Assembly (NCBI GenBank): GCA_001791995.1
Contig: MGFR01000003.1
Coordinates: 6,170 to 70,169, forward strand
Source of the DNA: Candidatus Woesebacteria bacterium RBG_13_46_13
GTDB lineage: Bacteria; Patescibacteriota; Microgenomatia; UBA8517
Length of the DNA: 64,000 nt
Reading direction: 5' to 3'
The translations under genes and the position numbers were made by a program. The notes below the pieces were generated by a model. The model was not told the origin of the DNA. It made no database searches and saw only the letters and a program-made list of their open reading frames with translations. How positions within the stretch are numbered: position 1 is the stretch's first letter; each line of letters opens with the position of its first letter. Positions 4,578 through 52,747 of this stretch are shown in pieces.

Positions 4578-6347
4578 CTATGGGGTCAAATTGGTCCACT
4601 TAGACGATGTTTGAATTATTGTGTTGAACCATTCAGTTTCATTGTCAAAATTATCCGCAATGGAGCTTGCCCATTTAAGAAAACTGTAGATTTGTTCCGC
4701 CTCAACACCGCCTTCATTATAAGCATGGTCTAATATTTTTTTAAACGCATCCAGGTTTAAAGGAATTATCTGTGCCTTACCACCATAATGTACAACATTT
4801 GTTTTTCGAAGCACAAAGAAAAGGGCCACGACTGAAGGATTTATCGAGGGGGCCAAAAATAATCCAAACACTGGCCGTTTATCTGCGTTAGTCCGCAATA
4901 CTTCGACAACATCTCCGAGGTGTCTTGCAACCGGTTCCCCCTCTGAATCATACTGCCTCGCACCAGTCGAAAGAGTAACTTCAACCACAAGGACAAAATT
5001 ATTGTAATAGCAGACCAAATCAGGAAGTTTTGGCGGGGCATTATGTAAAGGTCTACCGTCGTTATCGATAGAAAGATTTCCGATAATATTCCCATCGTCC
5101 AACATATTCAGCGCCCTCCAAGTGTTCCATTCAAAAAAAAGAGGCTTGTCTGGTATATCAATGTCGCCCCGGTCCTGAATTTTATTAAAAACCCCAATTA
5201 TATCCGGATACAACTTATAAGTTTGCAGTGCCTTTACCTCTTCATTGATTAAAGCCGACTGTAAAACCTGCTCAAGTTCTGTTTTCAAACCCCACAGCTC
5301 GTCTATCATTAGAGTGGTTAGCTTCCCCATCGAGTAGGTTTCATCTGGCTTTGGAAGTTTGCCAGATGCTGATCTAATTTTTACAACGAGTGCTATTATT
5401 TCTTCTCTCAATACACCAACATCATCTTCAGGAAGCGACGGCAAATTGGAATTACCGAGAAAGTCCAAAAAGACAGACGGTGATTTTTCATACTCTTCTG
5501 GTTCTCGCGGAAAAGTTTTAAGAATGGTCCTGACAATGCGCGTCTTGGTATCAAGAATTTCCAGCCTATAAGTCCTTCCAGAAATAGTAAAAAGGCCGGT
5601 CGCTCGAAAATATCGAATTGCTGCATCGGCGTAATCAATAGAATTTCTCATTTTTGTTTTAACAAAATCGTCTATGCTTGGTTTTCTGCCTTTCCTTTGC
5701 CTGAGTGTAATAGAGCCTTTGTTAATATCCACTAGATAGAGTGCAACATATTTTGCTAAATGAGTTTTTATAGCTAAGGCTTTCTTATCGCGACTGTTCT
5801 TTATGCTTTCTATGTTCTTTCGGAAATCAAGAATTTCTTTTTTCGTTCCCTCATAGTTTTGGTAATCAATTAGGGTTATCCCAAACATAGCGATTTCCCG
5901 CTTGCTTAGCCCATCAAGATCATAGACCAATCGCAAAATTTCCAAAAATGGCTTAATACGAAAGTCTTTATATCTCTCATCCCAATGTTTTGGTGATGGA
6001 TATTGCCATTTAAGGAGTTGTCGTAGAAATAAATCGTCTAATCGCCTTTTTTCTATTAGCCGCCTTCCTGCTGGAGTTATTTGTATTTTCTTTTCGTCAT
6101 CAAACCTCACGAAACCAAGAGTTTTTGGGCTTCTATTTATTCTGTCTCTAGCAGAAAATGAGGGTTCCTTTTCGTAGATTTTTCCCTCAAAAAAACCACT
6201 TTTCGCTAGCAATCTTGCGTATTGCTCTTGAATTTTGGAATCCCATTTCTTTCCTTCAAACCGGGCTAGCAGAGCTAGCTCATCACTTAGTTTATAAGGG
6301 TTTCTAGGCGAAGTTGACACCGACCACGTGTGTTTAGTTTCCGACAT
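4578..6347 (-). CDS. putative type II restriction endonuclease (589 aa), cognate of upstream methyltransferase
   Basis: Lies 8 bp downstream of the DNA methyltransferase on the same strand, the classic M-R arrangement. Its size and a C-terminal PD...E-V-T-like block (PDLVCYYNNFVLVVEVTLS) are compatible with a large type II REase such as the AlwI-like family. The family assignment is not verified. Confidence 0.45.
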   Translation of the reverse strand: MSETKHTWSVSTSPRNPYKLSDELALLARFEGKKWDSKIQEQYARLLAKSGFFEGKIYEKEPSFSARDRINRSPKTLGFVRFDDEKKIQITPAGRRLIEKRRLDDLFLRQLLKWQYPSPKHWDERYKDFRIKPFLEILRLVYDLDGLSKREIAMFGITLIDYQNYEGTKKEILDFRKNIESIKNSRDKKALAIKTHLAKYVALYLVDINKGSITLRQRKGRKPSIDDFVKTKMRNSIDYADAAIRYFRATGLFTISGRTYRLEILDTKTRIVRTILKTFPREPEEYEKSPSVFLDFLGNSNLPSLPEDDVGVLREEIIALVVKIRSASGKLPKPDETYSMGKLTTLMIDELWGLKTELEQVLQSALINEEVKALQTYKLYPDIIGVFNKIQDRGDIDIPDKPLFFEWNTWRALNMLDDGNIIGNLSIDNDGRPLHNAPPKLPDLVCYYNNFVLVVEVTLSTGARQYDSEGEPVARHLGDVVEVLRTNADKRPVFGLFLAPSINPSVVALFFVLRKTNVVHYGGKAQIIPLNLDAFKKILDHAYNEGGVEAEQIYSFLKWASSIADNFDNETEWFNTIIQTSSKWTNLTP

Positions 6348-49914: not shown

Positions 49915-50727
49915 ATGAAAGAAAACGAAGACAGATTGGGCAGAAGGGACTTCTTAAAAGCCAGTGCAATTGTGGCGGCCACGATTTTGGTAAGACCCGT
50001 CGCACACATTCCTCCGGAGCAGCCTGATGAGTGTATTCCCCAGGGTGTAACACCCGAGTTGCAGGAGTTTCTCGCTTCCCACGAAGTCAGAAAAGGAGAT
50101 ATCGATAGAAACGTGGTTTTGATGACCTACGACGATTTCGGCAACCACGAACGCTTTAACGCCATTCTGGATACTTACCAGGAATTGGGGGCCAAAGCCA
50201 CCTTTTTTGTACCCGGAGGATACGCCCGGGATAAAATTTACCTAAGGTATTACTCCAGGGAGATAGAAAGAATTGTTGCCGAAGGTCATGCACTGGGTTG
50301 CCACGGGCTCATCCACGAACCGCTCACGGTTTATAAAAAAGACCAGTTAAGCAAAGATATAAGACAATGGTTGGGACTGGTATCTTCTATAGTCCCGGGA
50401 TACGAAGTAAAATATTTCAGGTTTCCTTTCGGTGCCAGCGATCAGGACGCAAGGGAGGTTTTTGCCGAATACGGCCTGCAAAGCGTTCTTTGGTCCTTGG
50501 AGTCCGGGGGAACCGAAGAGCGTACCTTACAAAACGTACTCGAACGCGTCAGCGCGGGAGATATCGTCTTGAGCCATACCCCCCGTTTTTACGATGCCTA
50601 TTACTCCAGGCAAATAGTCGAAAGTCTGTTATCCTCCGGTTATAGCCTGGAAAGTGTCGCGACTGGACTTAAAAAGGAAGATTGTCCTTCTGCCAGGCTT
50701 GATCCCCAAGAATGTCCGAATAACTAG
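49915..50727 (+). CDS. polysaccharide deacetylase (NodB/CE4) with twin-arginine signal peptide
   Basis: Tat motif GRRDFLKASAIVAA. NodB motifs VLMTYDD and HGLIHE. The ORF-track start at 49894 is in frame. Confidence 0.7.
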   Translation: MKENEDRLGRRDFLKASAIVAATILVRPVAHIPPEQPDECIPQGVTPELQEFLASHEVRKGDIDRNVVLMTYDDFGNHERFNAILDTYQELGAKATFFVPGGYARDKIYLRYYSREIERIVAEGHALGCHGLIHEPLTVYKKDQLSKDIRQWLGLVSSIVPGYEVKYFRFPFGASDQDAREVFAEYGLQSVLWSLESGGTEERTLQNVLERVSAGDIVLSHTPRFYDAYYSRQIVESLLSSGYSLESVATGLKKEDCPSARLDPQECPNN

Positions 50728-50763
50728 TCTTGACTTCGGGTTTTATTCGGGATAGATTGAGAT

Positions 50764-51024
50764 ATGTTGGAGAAGATTTCAGCTCCGGTTTCCGTAACCC
50801 TGGTTTTTGACCACGCCAAAAGAAAAGTTTTTCCCAAGTGGCTGGTTTGGGAAGGAAAGCTCTATCCGCTCGAAAAAGTCGGCCTGCACCACACCTTCAG
50901 ACAGGGCCGCACCCTTTTCCACGTCTTCTCCGTGGCCTCAGAAACCCTATTTTTCCGACTTGTTTTCAATACCGACAATTTATTCTGGCGCCTGGAGGAA
51001 ATTTCAGATGGTCTTCCCGACTAA
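50764..51024 (+). CDS. hypothetical small protein (86 aa) immediately upstream of Y-family polymerase
   Basis: ORF ending within 17 nt of the polymerase start. No motif recognised. A YolD/UmuD-like accessory role is speculative. Confidence 0.3.
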   Translation: MLEKISAPVSVTLVFDHAKRKVFPKWLVWEGKLYPLEKVGLHHTFRQGRTLFHVFSVASETLFFRLVFNTDNLFWRLEEISDGLPD

Positions 51025-52270
51025 CCTTCCTTTCAATTCCAAACCCTCGACCGTGATGCATCTGGATTTGAATTCCTGCTTTGCCACCATCGAACAACAG
51101 GCCAACCCGCTTTTAAGGGGAAAGCCCGTGGCCGTGGCAGCCTACACTACTCCTTCGGGTTGTATTGTGGCCCCCTCTGTCGAGGCCAAACGCCTGGGCA
51201 TAAAAGTCGGAATGAGGGTCAAAGACGGAAAACTTCTTTGCCCCAGCCTGATAGTTTTGGCTCCCGACCCTTGGAAATACCGCAATGTCCACCTGGGCTT
51301 AAGGAAGATTGTCTCCGACTATACGCAGGAGTTTAGCCCCAAATCGATAGACGAGTTTGTGCTTAACCTGGAAGGCTACCCCGCCTTGCAGAAAGGCATG
51401 TGTAACCTCGCCAGAGAGATCAAGAGGCGGATTAGGGCCGAAGTCGGTGATTGGCTCAGCGTCTCAATAGGAATCGCTCCCAACAGGTTCCTGGCCAAGA
51501 CCGCGGCCGGGTTGCACAAGCCCGACGGGCTGGACGAGATCAATAAGGATAATTTCGTCAAGGTCTACTCCGGACTTGAACTTACGGACCTCTGCGGGAT
51601 TAAGGAGAGAAACGCGGTCAGGCTAAACGGTATGGGCATATATAGCGTTCCGGACTTTTACAAGGCCCCTTTCTGGAAGCTGAAGGCAGCCTTCAGCTCG
51701 ATTGCCGGCTATTATTGGTATTTGAGGCTTAGAGGTTGGGAAATAGACGATGTGGCCTTTGCCCGACGAAGCTACGGCAATTCCTACGCCTTACCCAAGC
51801 CTTTCTCAAGCATCAAGGAACTATCCCCCATTCTCTCCAAGCTGGTCGAGAAAATGGGGATACGGCTAAGGAGGGCCGGGTATAAAGCCAAAGGGGTCCA
51901 CCTGGCCATCTTCTTCAGAAACGGCTCTTTTTGGCACAAAGCGGCAGCCTCAGCCAAAGTTCTTTTCGATTCCAGAGACATCTATCAAGAGGCTTTTAGA
52001 CTCCTTGTCCGTTGTCCCCACCGTAGCCCGGTACGTGAACTGGCGGTTTCCTGCTTCAACCTTTCCCGGGATACAAGCCTACAAATGGAACTTTTCGCAG
52101 ACGTTGCCAGAAAACAAAAAATAGTCGAGGCGCTCGATGCAGTCAATGAACGCTGGGGAAACTTTGTGGTTACTCCGGCCAGAATGGCGGGGATGAACGA
52201 CACGGTTTTGGACAGGGTGGCTTTCGGTGGGGTGAAAGAACTGGAAGAGTTTACTCTAAATTCCAGATAG
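51008..52270 (+). CDS. Y-family DNA polymerase, UmuC/UvrX-like
   Basis: MHLDLNSCFATIEQ...LRGKPVAV...GCIVAPSVEAKRLGIKVGM closely parallels the UmuC N-terminus (CDVNAFYAS...GKPVVV...GCVIARNAEAKALGVKMG). GGAGGA SD 8 nt upstream of ATG 51008. An alternative start is ATG 51056. Confidence 0.75.
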   Translation: MVFPTNLPFNSKPSTVMHLDLNSCFATIEQQANPLLRGKPVAVAAYTTPSGCIVAPSVEAKRLGIKVGMRVKDGKLLCPSLIVLAPDPWKYRNVHLGLRKIVSDYTQEFSPKSIDEFVLNLEGYPALQKGMCNLAREIKRRIRAEVGDWLSVSIGIAPNRFLAKTAAGLHKPDGLDEINKDNFVKVYSGLELTDLCGIKERNAVRLNGMGIYSVPDFYKAPFWKLKAAFSSIAGYYWYLRLRGWEIDDVAFARRSYGNSYALPKPFSSIKELSPILSKLVEKMGIRLRRAGYKAKGVHLAIFFRNGSFWHKAAASAKVLFDSRDIYQEAFRLLVRCPHRSPVRELAVSCFNLSRDTSLQMELFADVARKQKIVEALDAVNERWGNFVVTPARMAGMNDTVLDRVAFGGVKELEEFTLNSR

Positions 52271-52747
52271 ATCAACTTCAGTTCCAAGAGTAACGTTGTT
52301 ATTGTCCGAGAAGCCGGCGTTAACCTCAAGAACGTAGTCGATCGGCTTTTCAGGATAATAAAGAGTCAAATGTCCTTCGGGTATGTCCTTATCAGGAGGT
52401 TGGAGAGCCTTGTCTATCTTGACCACCTTGGCATCGTTGACCCAGATAATATCGATGGGGATCAGCATCTCTTTCATCCAGAAAGAAGGGTAAATGTCTT
52501 TTTTGTCGAAGATAAAAAGCATTCCTGAATCGGCACCCAAGGAGGTTTTCCCGGATAGCCCGTTTTTTCTTTCGGCCTCATTATCCGCCAAGGTTACGCT
52601 AATCACTTTTTCCCCAACCTTGATCTCCTTTTTCGGTTCAGAACCCAAGGAAAGAGGAATTTTGGCCTGAAAATGGGAACTTCCCAGGACCCCGGCCAGA
52701 ACAACTATAATCCCGGTTACCAAAAACAGAAAAATAATACTTCTCAT
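52256..52747 (-). CDS. DUF192 domain protein, secreted/membrane-anchored
   Basis: VTLADNEAERKNGL...GMLFIFD...FWMKEMLIPIDIIWV...YVLEVNAG matches the DUF192 consensus. N-terminal TM or signal. Confidence 0.75.
   Translation of the reverse strand: MRSIIFLFLVTGIIVVLAGVLGSSHFQAKIPLSLGSEPKKEIKVGEKVISVTLADNEAERKNGLSGKTSLGADSGMLFIFDKKDIYPSFWMKEMLIPIDIIWVNDAKVVKIDKALQPPDKDIPEGHLTLYYPEKPIDYVLEVNAGFSDNNNVTLGTEVDLSGI

What the first reader, a model, noticed from the sequence alone, without database searches (positions are those of the whole stretch)
50764..52270. UmuC-like Y-family polymerase with a small upstream ORF (possible UmuD/YolD-type accessory)
The polymerase N-terminus carries the UmuC-type D-x-N catalytic variant (MHLDLNSCFA) rather than the DinB D-M-D. 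It aligns closely with UmuC through GKPV(A/V)V and GC(I/V)(V/I)A...AEAK.LG(I/V)K(V/M)G. An 86-aa ORF ends 17 nt into the polymerase ORF (or 32 nt before the alternative start). UmuC/UvrX-type polymerases usually need a small partner (UmuD' or YolD). The ORF shows no S24 peptidase motif, so it could be a YolD-like or novel accessory.
Basis: partly seen in the sequence, partly recalled or inferred. Interest (0 to 1): 0.5.

Follow-up and report, generated by a model that had tools for sequence, protein, structure and literature searches.

The report
SOS-type polymerase operon with ImuB-C-like partner
A two-gene operon in a Woesebacteria (candidate phyla radiation) genome encodes an active lesion-bypass DNA polymerase preceded by a small, strongly conserved all-beta protein that is a divergent relative of the already described but functionally unexplained 'ImuB-C' accessory domain, behind a conserved damage-response-like operator.

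Summary
An 86-aa ORF (50764-51024) sits directly upstream of a Y-family polymerase. The polymerase's real start is the ATG at 51008, which overlaps the small ORF by 17 nt.

The small ORF is a real gene. It has hundreds of homologues, dN/dS of about 0.14 and a confident all-beta model. The polymerase follows it directly in 74 of 80 species-level loci across Microgenomates; four more have mobile inserts between the genes.

It is neither UmuD nor YolD. Profile comparison links it to standalone ImuB-C (Pfam DUF6504), including the published Deinococcus deserti ImuB-C (E 1e-5, near full length, far above shuffled controls). More distant relatives lie in lexA-small-polY operons, the arrangement published for ImuB-C.

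The polymerase has intact catalytic residues, a QxxLF clamp motif and a RecA-NT-like tail. It scores closer to DinB-type models than to UmuC and forms its own clade.

A conserved direct repeat, TTCGGGTTTTATTCGGG, fills the promoter spacer. The same 16-mer precedes recA, imuA-like, imuB-like, dnaE2-like and radical-SAM genes in metagenomes, so it is probably a LexA box.

Verdict: a new, divergent member of a known kind (PolY + ImuB-C, presumably with RecA). Moderately interesting.

The parts
50730..50735 (+). -35 hexamer TTGACT of the operon promoter
   Evidence: Promoter scan finds TTGACT-17 nt-TAGATT. TTGAC directly precedes the repeat in most of the 71 orthologous loci that carry it.
50735..50751 (+). 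Direct-repeat operator TTCGGGTTTTATTCGGG (TTCGG-N6-TTCGG, period 11) in the promoter spacer; probable LexA box
   Evidence: Present in 71 of 78 Microgenomates loci. It is the only strong site in the 64-kb window: 28.6 bits, next best 14.8, shuffled maxima 8-19. The same 16-mer lies upstream of recA, imuA-like, imuB-like, dnaE2-like and radical-SAM genes in metagenome contigs.
50753..50758 (+). -10 hexamer TAGATT, 5 nt before the ATG; implies a leaderless or near-leaderless mRNA (inferred)
   Evidence: The repeat starts 28-33 nt before the ATG in 35 of the 71 loci. No Shine-Dalgarno sequence fits in the 5 nt.
50764..51024 (+). Small ORF, 86 aa: standalone ImuB-C-like (divergent DUF6504) all-beta protein
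50994..50998 (+). GGAGG Shine-Dalgarno for the polymerase, 9 nt before ATG 51008, inside the conserved L-E-E codons of the small ORF
   Evidence: Read from the sequence. LEE and D82-G83 are invariant or nearly so.
51008..52270 (+). Y-family DNA polymerase, 420 aa; the start codon sits in the D82-G83 codons (GATGG) of the small ORF (17-nt overlap, translational coupling inferred)
51008..51055 (+). Conserved N-terminal extension of the polymerase (MVFPTNLPFNSKPSTV; family motif L-x-F-N-P-K-P-S-T-I/V)
   Evidence: Conserved at protein level whatever the spacing to the small ORF (F9 and N10 at >=90%). Also present in distant L087 and L088; absent from L084 and L161.
51065..51067 (+). Catalytic Asp D20 (of HLDLN)
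   Evidence: Invariant in 66 orthologues.
51350..51355 (+). Catalytic D115-E116 (SIDEF motif)
   Evidence: Invariant in 66 orthologues.
52082..52096 (+). Beta-clamp-binding motif QMELF (QxxLF)
   Evidence: Q359 is invariant and Ql.lf is conserved. The motif definition comes from PMC12926913.
52109..52186 (+). C-terminal tail RKQKIVEALDAVNERWGNFVVTPARM, resembling the RecA-NT / DUF4113 motif of UmuC-, YqjW- and ImuB-type polymerases
   Evidence: D377, N380, G384 and M393 are conserved. 22 of 66 orthologues give weak DUF4113 hits, best E 0.045. The motif concept comes from PMC6511836.

Best explanation
This is a two-gene, damage-inducible translesion-synthesis operon.

Promoter and operator. The promoter is TTGACT-17 nt-TAGATT. 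Its spacer is filled by the direct repeat TTCGG-N6-TTCGG. This is most likely the operator of the lineage's LexA repressor, which would keep the operon off until RecA-stimulated LexA cleavage (inferred).

Transcript and translation. The transcript is leaderless or nearly so and starts at the ATG of the small gene. The polymerase's Shine-Dalgarno sequence (GGAGG) and start codon lie inside the last codons of the small gene. The two proteins would therefore be made by coupled translation in fixed proportion (inferred from geometry).

The polymerase. It is a catalytically competent Y-family enzyme with D20, D115 and E116 intact. It should be brought to stalled forks by its QxxLF beta-clamp motif. 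Its RecA-NT-like C-terminal tail should dock it onto RecA (inferred by analogy with UmuC, YqjW and ImuB).

The small protein. The 86-aa product is a standalone ImuB-C-type beta domain with no catalytic motif. It most likely acts as a non-catalytic subunit or adaptor of a PolY-[ImuB-C]-RecA complex. It would play the part that the covalently attached ImuB-C domain plays in ImuB, namely protein-protein contacts with the RecA-like partner and/or another polymerase. It might also contribute to recognising damaged DNA.

Shown versus inferred. Shown here: gene reality, tight conserved linkage, homology to ImuB-C, intact polymerase motifs, and a conserved operator shared with SOS-type genes. Inferred: LexA binding, physical complex formation, and the actual role of the small subunit.
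For: Linkage. 78 of 80 species-representative loci (Woese-, Curtiss-, Shapiro-, Collier-, Davies-, Ames-, Gottesman- and Woykebacteria) show the polymerase within the 4 kb held downstream, directly adjacent in 74. In four of the 78 (L022, L032, L037, L046) 1.5-3.7 kb separates the genes, with DUF3800 and restriction-modification genes in three. In one locus with no polymerase in view (L047) a 4-kb insert fills the flank, and in the other (L069) the downstream genes differ.

Distant relatives (25-40% identity) show the same pairing. L088 has lexA-like S24 gene, small gene and PolY, tightly packed. L084 has lexA, an 80-aa ORF, the small gene, an inserted 23S_IVP gene and PolY. L087 (72% GC) has the small gene overlapping a PolY with the same N-terminal motif.

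Homology to ImuB-C.
- 24 of 100 divergent family members hit Pfam DUF6504, and no other family recurs in more than 4.
- DUF6504 is ImuB-C. It hits the C-terminus of a bona fide ImuB encoded between imuA-like and dnaE2 genes on S. meliloti pSymA. PGAP labels an ImuB 'DUF6504 family protein'. The published D. deserti standalone ImuB-C in lexA-imuY-imuB-C-dnaE2 is annotated DUF6504 and scores 30 bits (PMC8072749).
- hhalign of the family profile against Deinococcus ImuB-C gives E 1.2e-5 to 1.7e-5, probability 79-81%, over 63-73 columns. The real score is 28.0; 200 column-shuffled controls gave 9.7 +/- 2.1, maximum 17.7. An unrelated upstream ORF gave E 0.5.
- An ImuB C-terminus HMM scores 38 of 365 family members at >=5 bits, against 21 of 3650 shuffled and 0 of 365 reversed sequences.

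Polymerase motifs.

Operator. In L134 a lexA gene has TTCGGAGACGGTTCGG upstream. Distant modules carry other LexA-box-like sites (GTTC-N7-GTTC, TAGTAC-N4-GTACTA, AGAAC-N4-GTGCT).
Against: - No family member reaches Pfam's DUF6504 gathering score: best E 1.5e-4 and at most about 19 bits, against a cut-off of 24.2.
- hhalign probabilities are about 80%, not above 95%. The link to the proteobacterial ImuB C-terminus alone is weak (E 0.003-0.005).
- No lexA or recA lies in the 64-kb window or within 4 kb of any Microgenomates locus. The regulator of the repeat is therefore inferred.
- The function of ImuB-C is experimentally unknown in any organism.
- In ImuB the domain is modelled as contacting DnaE2 and ImuA. 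Whether this genome has DnaE2 is unknown.
- The DUF4113 / RecA-NT similarity of the polymerase tail is weak (best E 0.045).
Confidence: 0.72

Rival explanations
1. The small protein is a UmuD'- or YolD/YqjX-type subunit, making the pair a Pol V-like enzyme (UmuD'2C or YqjW-YqjX analogue).
For: The pair has the same overall logic as Pol V: a small gene next to a Y-family polymerase that carries a clamp motif and a RecA-NT-like tail. Local N-terminal motifs resemble UmuC (GKPVxV, GCxxA..EAK.LG.K.G).
Confidence: 0.05
2. The small protein is the DNA-binding regulator of the operon, or a damage sensor acting on DNA (Aravind's proposal for ImuB-C), rather than a polymerase subunit. It might itself recognise the TTCGG repeats.
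For: No lexA lies near any Microgenomates locus. PMC3765255 proposes DNA or damage binding for ImuB-C. The operator is a direct repeat. The protein has 11 K/R residues and invariant H42, H43 and H53.
Against: The same 16-mer precedes recA, imuA-like, imuB-like, dnaE2-like and radical-SAM genes on contigs where no small gene is seen next to it, including high-GC contigs. That is the signature of a global SOS repressor. In L084 and L088 the small gene is co-transcribed with lexA behind quite different LexA-box-like sites. The net charge is about +1, and there is no known DNA-binding fold.
Confidence: 0.12
3. The small ORF is only a translational device (an upstream or leader ORF that delivers ribosomes to the polymerase start), and its product has no function.
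For: The polymerase's Shine-Dalgarno sequence and ATG lie inside the small ORF's last codons. The small ORF appears leaderless.
Against: Protein-level conservation runs along the whole 86 aa (mean column identity 72%, 25 invariant positions). dN/dS is about 0.14. The fold prediction is confident. The family is retained when 1.5-4 kb is inserted between the genes, or when the intergenic gap is 100-430 nt.
Confidence: 0.03
4. The resemblance to ImuB-C is convergent or spurious. The small protein would be an unrelated, CPR-centred family of unknown role that merely shares a neighbourhood with a polymerase.
For: All Pfam hits are sub-threshold. hhalign probability is about 80%. All-beta proteins of low complexity can give weak profile matches.
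Against: The match is near full length and in register. The score lies about 8.6 standard deviations above column-shuffled controls. DUF6504 is the only recurrent family. The published defining contexts and descriptors are all reproduced.
Confidence: 0.08

Closest known systems
[quoted passage not shown]
   Same: A small beta-protein of about 80 aa is encoded immediately upstream of a catalytically intact PolY that has a clamp motif and a RecA-NT-like tail. The module is SOS-linked: lexA sits in the operon in distant relatives L084 and L088. No imuA or dnaE2 lies in the operon.
   Different: The sequences are too divergent for Pfam DUF6504 to call them. lexA is not in the operon in Microgenomates; instead a TTCGG-N6-TTCGG direct repeat sits in the promoter. 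The polymerase has a conserved N-terminal FNPKPST extension, and its start codon is embedded in the small gene. The lineage is the candidate phyla radiation, which the word searches run here did not find mentioned in the two polymerase surveys.
[quoted passage not shown]
   Same: It contains a standalone ImuB-C protein (80 aa, DUF6504) to which the window family aligns nearly end to end (E 1e-5). It is a LexA/RecA-controlled TLS cassette.
   Different: There the Y-family member (ImuY) is predicted to be inactive, DnaE2 is the synthesising enzyme, and the gene order is polY then imuB-C. Here the Y-family polymerase keeps its catalytic residues, no dnaE2 is adjacent, and the order is imuB-C-like gene then polY.
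ImuA-ImuB-DnaE2 mutasome (Mycobacterium, Caulobacter, Pseudomonas; S. meliloti pSymA copy, L091)
   Same: The domain set matches: PolY fold, RecA-NT motif and ImuB-C domain. The operon is SOS-controlled.
   Different: In ImuB the three parts are one chain and the polymerase is catalytically dead. Here they are split over two genes and the polymerase is intact. Similarity of the small protein to the ImuB C-terminus alone is weak (E about 0.004).
E. coli Pol V (UmuD'2C-RecA) and B. subtilis YqjW-YqjX / UvrX-YolD
   Same: It works on the same principle: an SOS-regulated Y-family polymerase with a small co-encoded partner and a RecA-binding tail.
   Different: The partner has a different fold and family (no S24 domain, no YolD, no autocleavage site). 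The polymerase is not in the UmuC or YqjW clades.
Direct-repeat LexA boxes (GTTC-N7-GTTC of Alphaproteobacteria, PMC8565304; Patescibacteria LexA cited as direct-repeat-binding in PMC7739468 via Sanchez-Osuna et al. 2017, which I could not read)
   Same: It is a direct repeat with an 11-bp period that overlaps the promoter. (C/A)TTC-N7-(A)TTC is contained within TTCGG-N6-TTCGG.
   Different: The exact consensus published for Patescibacteria could not be checked here. Identity with it is a lead, not a result.

Membership tests
ImuB-C superfamily / Pfam DUF6504 (PF20114) | Statistically supported sequence similarity to recognised members | tested here: met
   hhalign of the family profile against Deinococcus standalone ImuB-C gives E 1.2e-5 to 1.7e-5, probability 79-81%, over 63-73 columns. 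The score is 28.0, against 9.7 +/- 2.1 for shuffled controls.
ImuB-C superfamily / Pfam DUF6504 (PF20114) | Reaches Pfam's curated gathering score (24.2 bits) | tested here: not met
   The window protein gives no hit at E<=1. 24 of 100 relatives hit only below threshold, best E 1.5e-4. Bona fide ImuB C-termini are also sub-threshold (17-21 bits), so the model is narrow.
ImuB-C superfamily / Pfam DUF6504 (PF20114) | Globular domain of about 80 residues, predominantly beta, with no solved structural relative | tested here: met
ImuB-C superfamily / Pfam DUF6504 (PF20114) | Conserved C-terminal tryptophan, conserved basic residues and no catalytic-looking motif | tested here: met
   W75 is invariant in A1 and present in >=90% of the 100 divergent sequences. 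R65 is invariant in A1. It aligns with the WW(L) of Deinococcus ImuB-C.
ImuB-C superfamily / Pfam DUF6504 (PF20114) | Gene neighbourhood with translesion polymerases and often lexA | tested here: met
ImuB-C superfamily / Pfam DUF6504 (PF20114) | Physical association with PolY, RecA/ImuA or DnaE2 | not testable with these tools
UmuD / Peptidase S24 | S24 fold with Ser-Lys dyad and an Ala/Cys-Gly cleavage site | tested here: not met
   There is no PF00717 hit at E<=1. No UmuD or LexA structures appear among the fold matches.
YolD / YqjX (PF08863) | YolD-like domain, or at least its N-terminal arm | tested here: not met
   The window protein has no PF08863 hit at E<=1, and YolD is not among the 25 families most often hit in the 100-member scan. 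Homology to the N-terminal arm alone was not tested separately.
UmuC (Pol V catalytic subunit) | Membership of the UmuC subfamily and a umuD partner | tested here: not met
   NCBIfam PRK03609 scores 58 bits against a cut-off of 431, over residues 3-217 only. BLASTP to a plasmid UmuC gives 76 bits, lower than to DinB. No umuD is present.
UmuC (Pol V catalytic subunit) | C-terminal DUF4113 / RecA-NT motif | tested here: inconclusive
   22 of 66 orthologues give weak DUF4113 hits (best E 0.045). The conserved pattern is D377, N380 and G384. The motif is not specific to UmuC (PMC6511836).
DinB / Pol IV (Y-family core) | IMS and IMS_C domains with the catalytic D, D, E | tested here: met
   (best PDB match 7yll_A, DNA polymerase IV, 1.2e-63).
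DinB / Pol IV (Y-family core) | Orthology to characterised Pol IV (NCBIfam equivalog cut-offs) | tested here: not met
   The best score is 195 bits against a cut-off of 399. In the NJ tree the protein lies outside the E. coli + Sphingomonas DinB pair (deep nodes unresolved).
LexA (SOS) regulon | Conserved operator in the promoter, shared with canonical SOS genes | tested here: met
LexA (SOS) regulon | LexA binds the operator; the operon is induced by DNA damage | not testable with these tools
   This needs EMSA or expression data. No lexA gene lies in the sequence available for this organism.

The most novel reading that the evidence does not exclude
In the candidate phyla radiation, and in some high-GC relatives, the ImuB-C-like protein and the polymerase's lineage-specific N-terminal FNPKPST extension form a distinct obligate two-subunit translesion polymerase. 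This would be a third structural solution, besides UmuD'2C and YqjW-YqjX, to gating a Y-family enzyme. The small beta-barrel, with its invariant His42-His43-His53 cluster, would sense damage or RecA filaments. The pair would be controlled by a TTCGG-N6-TTCGG LexA box that defines an SOS regulon shared by CPR and an unidentified high-GC lineage.
Probability: 0.2. Interest if true: 0.65.

Novelty: new member of a known kind. Interest (0 to 1): 0.42.

Why it matters
ImuB-C is one of the least understood parts of bacterial mutagenic polymerase systems, and no experiment has defined what it does. This locus shows that a very compact, highly conserved form of the PolY + ImuB-C pair persists in the reduced genomes of Microgenomates. 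Small ORFs are 55-83% identical across eight candidate phyla. That argues the small subunit is indispensable to the polymerase rather than an optional add-on.

The family supplies hundreds of sequences that the current Pfam model misses. It also gives a clean two-gene system with no DnaE2 or ImuA in the operon, suited to biochemical dissection. The sharply defined operator can be used to reconstruct the SOS regulon of uncultured lineages.

It does not overturn current views. It extends a published but untested model.

Tried and rejected
- Pfam and NCBIfam on the small ORF gave nothing.
- The second and third homologue searches mostly returned the same CPR family, with no Pfam labels, and did not bridge to named proteins.
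- tblastn of divergent family members against plasmids found nothing.
- tblastn of the polymerase against plasmids was a slow route to ImuB, and one fetched hit was irrelevant. ImuB was finally found by reading pSymA blind.
- Literature searches for DUF6504 and PF20114 found no paper. The Patescibacteria SOS paper (PMID 28618189) is not held.
- hhalign against a single ImuB C-terminus, or against eight proteobacterial ones, is only weakly positive.
- The Megaera ORF upstream of the closest plasmid PolY is unrelated.
A fused small-plus-polymerase construct was therefore not attempted.
- Considered and rejected: a UmuD or YolD partner, a pure leader-peptide role, and the antisense ORF 50779-50922 (47 aa, not conserved as a frame).
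Full report
**1. The observation**

The window comes from Candidatus Woesebacteria bacterium RBG_13_46_13; the small protein is 100% identical to a protein of that assembly. An 86-aa ORF occupies 50764-51024 on the + strand. A long ORF in another + frame ends at 52270 and carries the Pfam domains IMS (5.9e-35) and IMS_C (5.9e-14).

The flanking genes are unrelated. A polysaccharide deacetylase lies upstream on the same strand, and a DUF192 gene converges from downstream. The unit therefore consists of exactly two genes.

**2. The small ORF is a real, strongly constrained gene**

- A homologue search returned 318 proteins at E<=0.01. Nearly all of the 120 listed are 86 aa long, they are 67-83% identical, and all are unannotated.
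- A profile search of cluster representatives found 447 clusters at E<=0.001.
- Against 52 orthologous coding sequences the median dN is 0.30. dS is saturated in 42 pairs. dN/dS is about 0.14 where it can be measured.
- AlphaFold2 with a 33-sequence alignment gives a confident all-beta model: pLDDT 92.4, pTM 0.78, six strands.

**3. Linkage to the polymerase**

I examined 80 species-representative loci. They come from Woese-, Curtiss-, Shapiro-, Collier-, Davies-, Ames-, Gottesman- and Woykebacteria.

- In 78 of them the polymerase lies within the 4 kb held downstream, and in 74 it follows directly, mostly with the same spacing as here.
- Four of the 78 (L022, L032, L037, L046) carry 1.5-3.7 kb between the two genes. 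The inserts of L022, L037 and L046 encode DUF3800 proteins, in L046 together with an Eco57I-type methylase.
- Two loci show no polymerase. In L047 a similar insert of about 4 kb fills the flank, so the polymerase probably lies beyond it. Only L069 seems to have lost the neighbour.

The polymerase frame upstream of MH(I/L)DLN encodes a conserved peptide, L-x-F-N-P-K-P-S-T-(I/V). It is present in nearly all loci whatever the intergenic distance. The 'M' of MHLDLN is often L or I. The true start in the window is therefore ATG 51008.

That ATG lies in the codons of the invariant D82 and near-invariant G83 (GATGG) of the small gene. A GGAGG lies 9 nt upstream of it, in the invariant L-E-E codons. 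This arrangement implies translational coupling (inferred).

**4. What the polymerase is**

Across 66 orthologues D20, D115 and E116 (SIDEF) are invariant. Q359 of a QxxLF clamp motif is also invariant. A C-terminal tail (K-K-x-x-L-V-x-A-x-D-x-I-N-E-R-W-G-x-F-V-I-T-P-A-R-M ... D-R-I-A-F-G-G) is conserved. This tail resembles the RecA-NT / DUF4113 motif that Timinskas and Venclovas found in UmuC, YqjW, ImuB and many other PolY groups (PMC6511836). The direct support here is weak: 22 of 66 orthologues hit DUF4113, best E 0.045.

The protein is not UmuC.

| Comparison | Score |
|---|---|
| NCBIfam UmuC model | 58 bits |
| Five best NCBIfam Pol IV models (all below their ortholog cut-offs) | 163-195 bits |
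| BLASTP, Sphingomonas DinB | 120 bits |
| BLASTP, E. coli DinB | 105 bits |
| BLASTP, enterococcal plasmid PolY | 103 bits |
| BLASTP, plasmid UmuC | 76 bits |
| Best solved relative, 7yll_A 'DNA polymerase IV' | E 1.2e-63 |

In a small NJ tree the protein groups with other small-ORF-linked polymerases. Bootstrap support with L088 is 100%, and the deeper nodes are unresolved. D-x-N also occurs in non-UmuC polymerases in this set, so it is not diagnostic.

**5. What the small protein is**

When 100 divergent family members were scanned, 24 hit Pfam DUF6504 below threshold (best E 1.5e-4). No other family recurred in more than four.

I then established what DUF6504 is.

- It hits the C-terminal domain of a bona fide ImuB. 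That ImuB is encoded between an imuA-like gene and dnaE2 on S. meliloti pSymA.
- PGAP names an ImuB lying between 'ImuA family protein' and 'error-prone DNA polymerase' a 'DUF6504 family protein'.
- The published standalone ImuB-C of Deinococcus deserti (Deide_1p01890, in lexA-imuY-imuB-C-dnaE2; PMC8072749) is annotated DUF6504 and scores 30 bits.

DUF6504 is therefore the ImuB-C domain of Aravind et al. (PMC3765255).

Profile-profile comparison gave the following.

| Comparison | Result |
|---|---|
| Window family vs D. deserti ImuB-C | E 1.2e-5, probability 81% |
| Window family vs six Deinococcus ImuB-C | E 1.7e-5, probability 79%, 73 columns (nearly end to end) |
| Deinococcus ImuB-C vs proteobacterial ImuB C-termini (accepted link) | E 4.6e-6, probability 86% |
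| Real score vs 200 column-shuffled targets | 28.0 vs 9.7 +/- 2.1 (maximum 17.7) |
| Reversed target | 9.2 |
| Unrelated upstream ORF of another PolY | E 0.5 |

The link to the window family is thus about as strong as the accepted link within the superfamily. In addition, an HMM of ImuB C-termini scores 38 of 365 family members at >=5 bits, against 21 of 3650 shuffled and 0 of 365 reversed sequences.

The published descriptors of ImuB-C all fit: about 80 residues, all-beta, a conserved C-terminal Trp, conserved basic residues, no catalytic motif and no PDB relative (PMC3765255, PMC12926913).

**6. Context in distant relatives**

- P0268 (about 33% identical to the window protein): lexA-like S24 gene, small gene and PolY, packed without gaps on a 33% GC contig (L088).
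- P0266: lexA, an 80-aa Cys-rich ORF, the small gene, an inserted 23S_IVP gene and PolY (L084). Its relatives are Parcubacteria/Uhrbacteria.
- P0269: the small gene overlaps a PolY with the same N-terminal motif on a 72% GC contig (L087).

This is the 'lexA-imuB-C-polY' arrangement described for Geobacter sulfurreducens and classed as a putative PolY-[ImuB-C]-RecA complex (PMC6511836 section 17; PMC12926913).

**7. Regulation**

The promoter is TTGACT (50730-50735), a 17-nt spacer, then TAGATT (to 50758). The spacer is filled by TTCGGGTTTTATTCGGG (50735-50751), a direct repeat of TTCGG with an 11-bp period.

- The TTGAC-repeat-TAtAAt block occurs in 71 of 78 Microgenomates loci. The repeat usually starts 28-33 nt before the ATG, and some loci carry a second copy downstream.
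- In the 64-kb window it is the only strong match: 28.6 bits, next best 14.8, shuffled maxima 8-19.
- The -10 box ends 5 nt before the ATG and there is no Shine-Dalgarno sequence. The mRNA is probably leaderless (inferred).

An exact search for the 16-mer in metagenome contigs returned 119 stretches holding 120 occurrences. Most of these lie in contexts with no evident link to DNA repair. The following occurrences are promoter-proximal to relevant genes.

| Downstream gene | Number | Loci |
|---|---|---|
| Small-ORF family | 10 | L111, L209, L210, L215 and six others |
| recA | 1 | L108 |
| RecA-like / imuA-like | 2 | L132, L137 |
| Y-family, ImuB-like N-terminus | 1 | L131 |
| Y-family, active-looking, no small gene | 1 | L161 |
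| 1072-aa DnaE2-type polymerase | 1 | L146 |
| Radical-SAM gene (a second site lies before the next gene) | 1 | L154 |
| HNH-endonuclease family | 5 | L145, L152, L160, L165, L203 |

In L134 a lexA gene has TTCGGAGACGGTTCGG upstream. This gene set is what one expects of an SOS regulon.

PMC7739468 cites the Patescibacteria LexA as one that recognises a direct repeat. I could not read the primary paper. Distant modules carry other LexA-box-like sites: GTTC-N7-GTTC before lexA in L084, TAGTAC-N4-GTACTA in L088 and AGAAC-N4-GTGCT in L087. No lexA or recA lies in the window, so the identity of the regulator remains inferred.

**8. Mechanism proposed**

After DNA damage the repressor, most likely LexA, leaves the repeat. 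A leaderless bicistronic mRNA is then made, and ribosomes finishing the small gene reinitiate at the embedded polymerase start.

The active PolY would be recruited through its clamp motif and its RecA-NT-like tail. The ImuB-C-like protein would act as its non-catalytic partner. In ImuB the covalent ImuB-C barrel is modelled as contacting ImuA and the PHP domain of DnaE2 (PMC12926913). In this split, DnaE2-less operon the likely contacts are RecA, the PolY itself, or the replicative DnaE. All of these steps are inferred. The biochemical role of ImuB-C is unknown in every system.

**9. Comparison and novelty**

The module is a member of a kind already described in silico: standalone ImuB-C plus an active PolY. 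Four things are new here.

- A large, divergent subfamily, centred on the candidate phyla radiation, that Pfam and NCBIfam do not recognise.
- The embedded-start, leaderless architecture.
- The polymerase's conserved N-terminal extension.
- The sharply conserved direct-repeat operator, shared with SOS-type genes in both low-GC and high-GC contigs.

I rate it a new member of a known kind, of moderate interest.

Noticed in passing
L145, L152, L160, L165, L203 (metagenome contigs; e.g. L145:6588-7169): A conserved family of about 190 aa with an HNH domain (Pfam HNH 6.5e-6), starting M..K(T)TT..CL.CNK.F.PA.SE.KRGNGKFCSLSC. It sits 13 nt downstream of the same TTGA-TTCGGGTTTTATTCGG-TATA promoter/operator. 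It may be an unrecognised SOS-regulated nuclease in CPR bacteria.
   Followed up: partly
L131, L132, L137, L146, L154, L134 (63-73% GC contigs): The AT-rich 16-mer TTCGGGTTTTATTCGG also precedes imuA-like, imuB-like, dnaE2-like, radical-SAM and hemerythrin genes in high-GC organisms of unknown identity. L154 has two strong sites. L134 has lexA nearby with TTCGG-N6-TTCGG upstream. The same operator type therefore seems to be used well outside the low-GC CPR lineages.
   Followed up: partly
L022:4262-5740, L037:1157-2530, L046:2313-5950, L047:4272-8125: The short gap between the small gene and the polymerase is a recurrent insertion site. The inserts encode DUF3800 proteins (Pfam-confirmed in L022; FxDESG motif in the others), and in L046 and L047 also a 900-1019 aa protein (Eco57I-type restriction-modification methylase by Pfam in L046).
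   Followed up: partly
L084:4691-4933 and 5336-5656: In the lexA-small-polY operon of a Parcubacteria-like contig, an 80-aa Cys-rich ORF with no Pfam hit lies between lexA and the small gene. A 23S_rRNA_IVP (bAvd-like) gene is inserted between the small gene and the polymerase.
   Followed up: no
window 50716-50723 vs 50743-50750: CCGAATAA, at the end of the upstream deacetylase gene, is the exact inverted complement of TTATTCGG in the operator, 19 nt away. It may be a third half-site in inverted orientation, or chance.
   Followed up: no
window 50884-50895 and 50920-50922 (small ORF residues H42, H43, T44, H53): G-L-H-H-T ... H is invariant in the Microgenomates clade. Deinococcus ImuB-C has W/R-rich sequence in its place. 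This lineage-specific histidine cluster has no explanation so far; metal, ligand or interface roles are possible.
   Followed up: no
window 52256-52270: The 3' end of the polymerase gene overlaps the 3' end of the convergent DUF192 gene (52256-52747, minus strand) by 15 nt. No terminator-like hairpin lies between them on the + strand.
   Followed up: no
L013, L016, L041, L045, L050, L057, L062, L071 (upstream of the small gene): Several loci carry a second, downstream copy of the TTCGG-N6-TTCGG repeat between the promoter and the ATG (tandem operators). In these loci the mRNA is not leaderless.
   Followed up: no
L004, L005, L010-L014 and others (genome contigs titles): Many contigs that clearly carry this Microgenomates module are titled 'uncultured Gammaproteobacteria bacterium' or 'Pseudomonadales'. 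These are probably mislabelled MAG records.
   Followed up: no
P0154 (145 aa): One database 'protein' joins the first about 63 residues of the small protein, by an apparent frameshift, to LPFNPKPPTIMHLDLNSCFA... of the polymerase. It is probably an assembly or gene-calling artefact, but it independently shows the conserved N-terminal extension.
   Followed up: no
L161:6280-7560 (minus strand): A CPR-like Y-family polymerase (427 aa, HADLN) sits directly behind the same operator with no small gene between the operator and its start. Not every polymerase under this operator has the ImuB-C-like partner.
   Followed up: no
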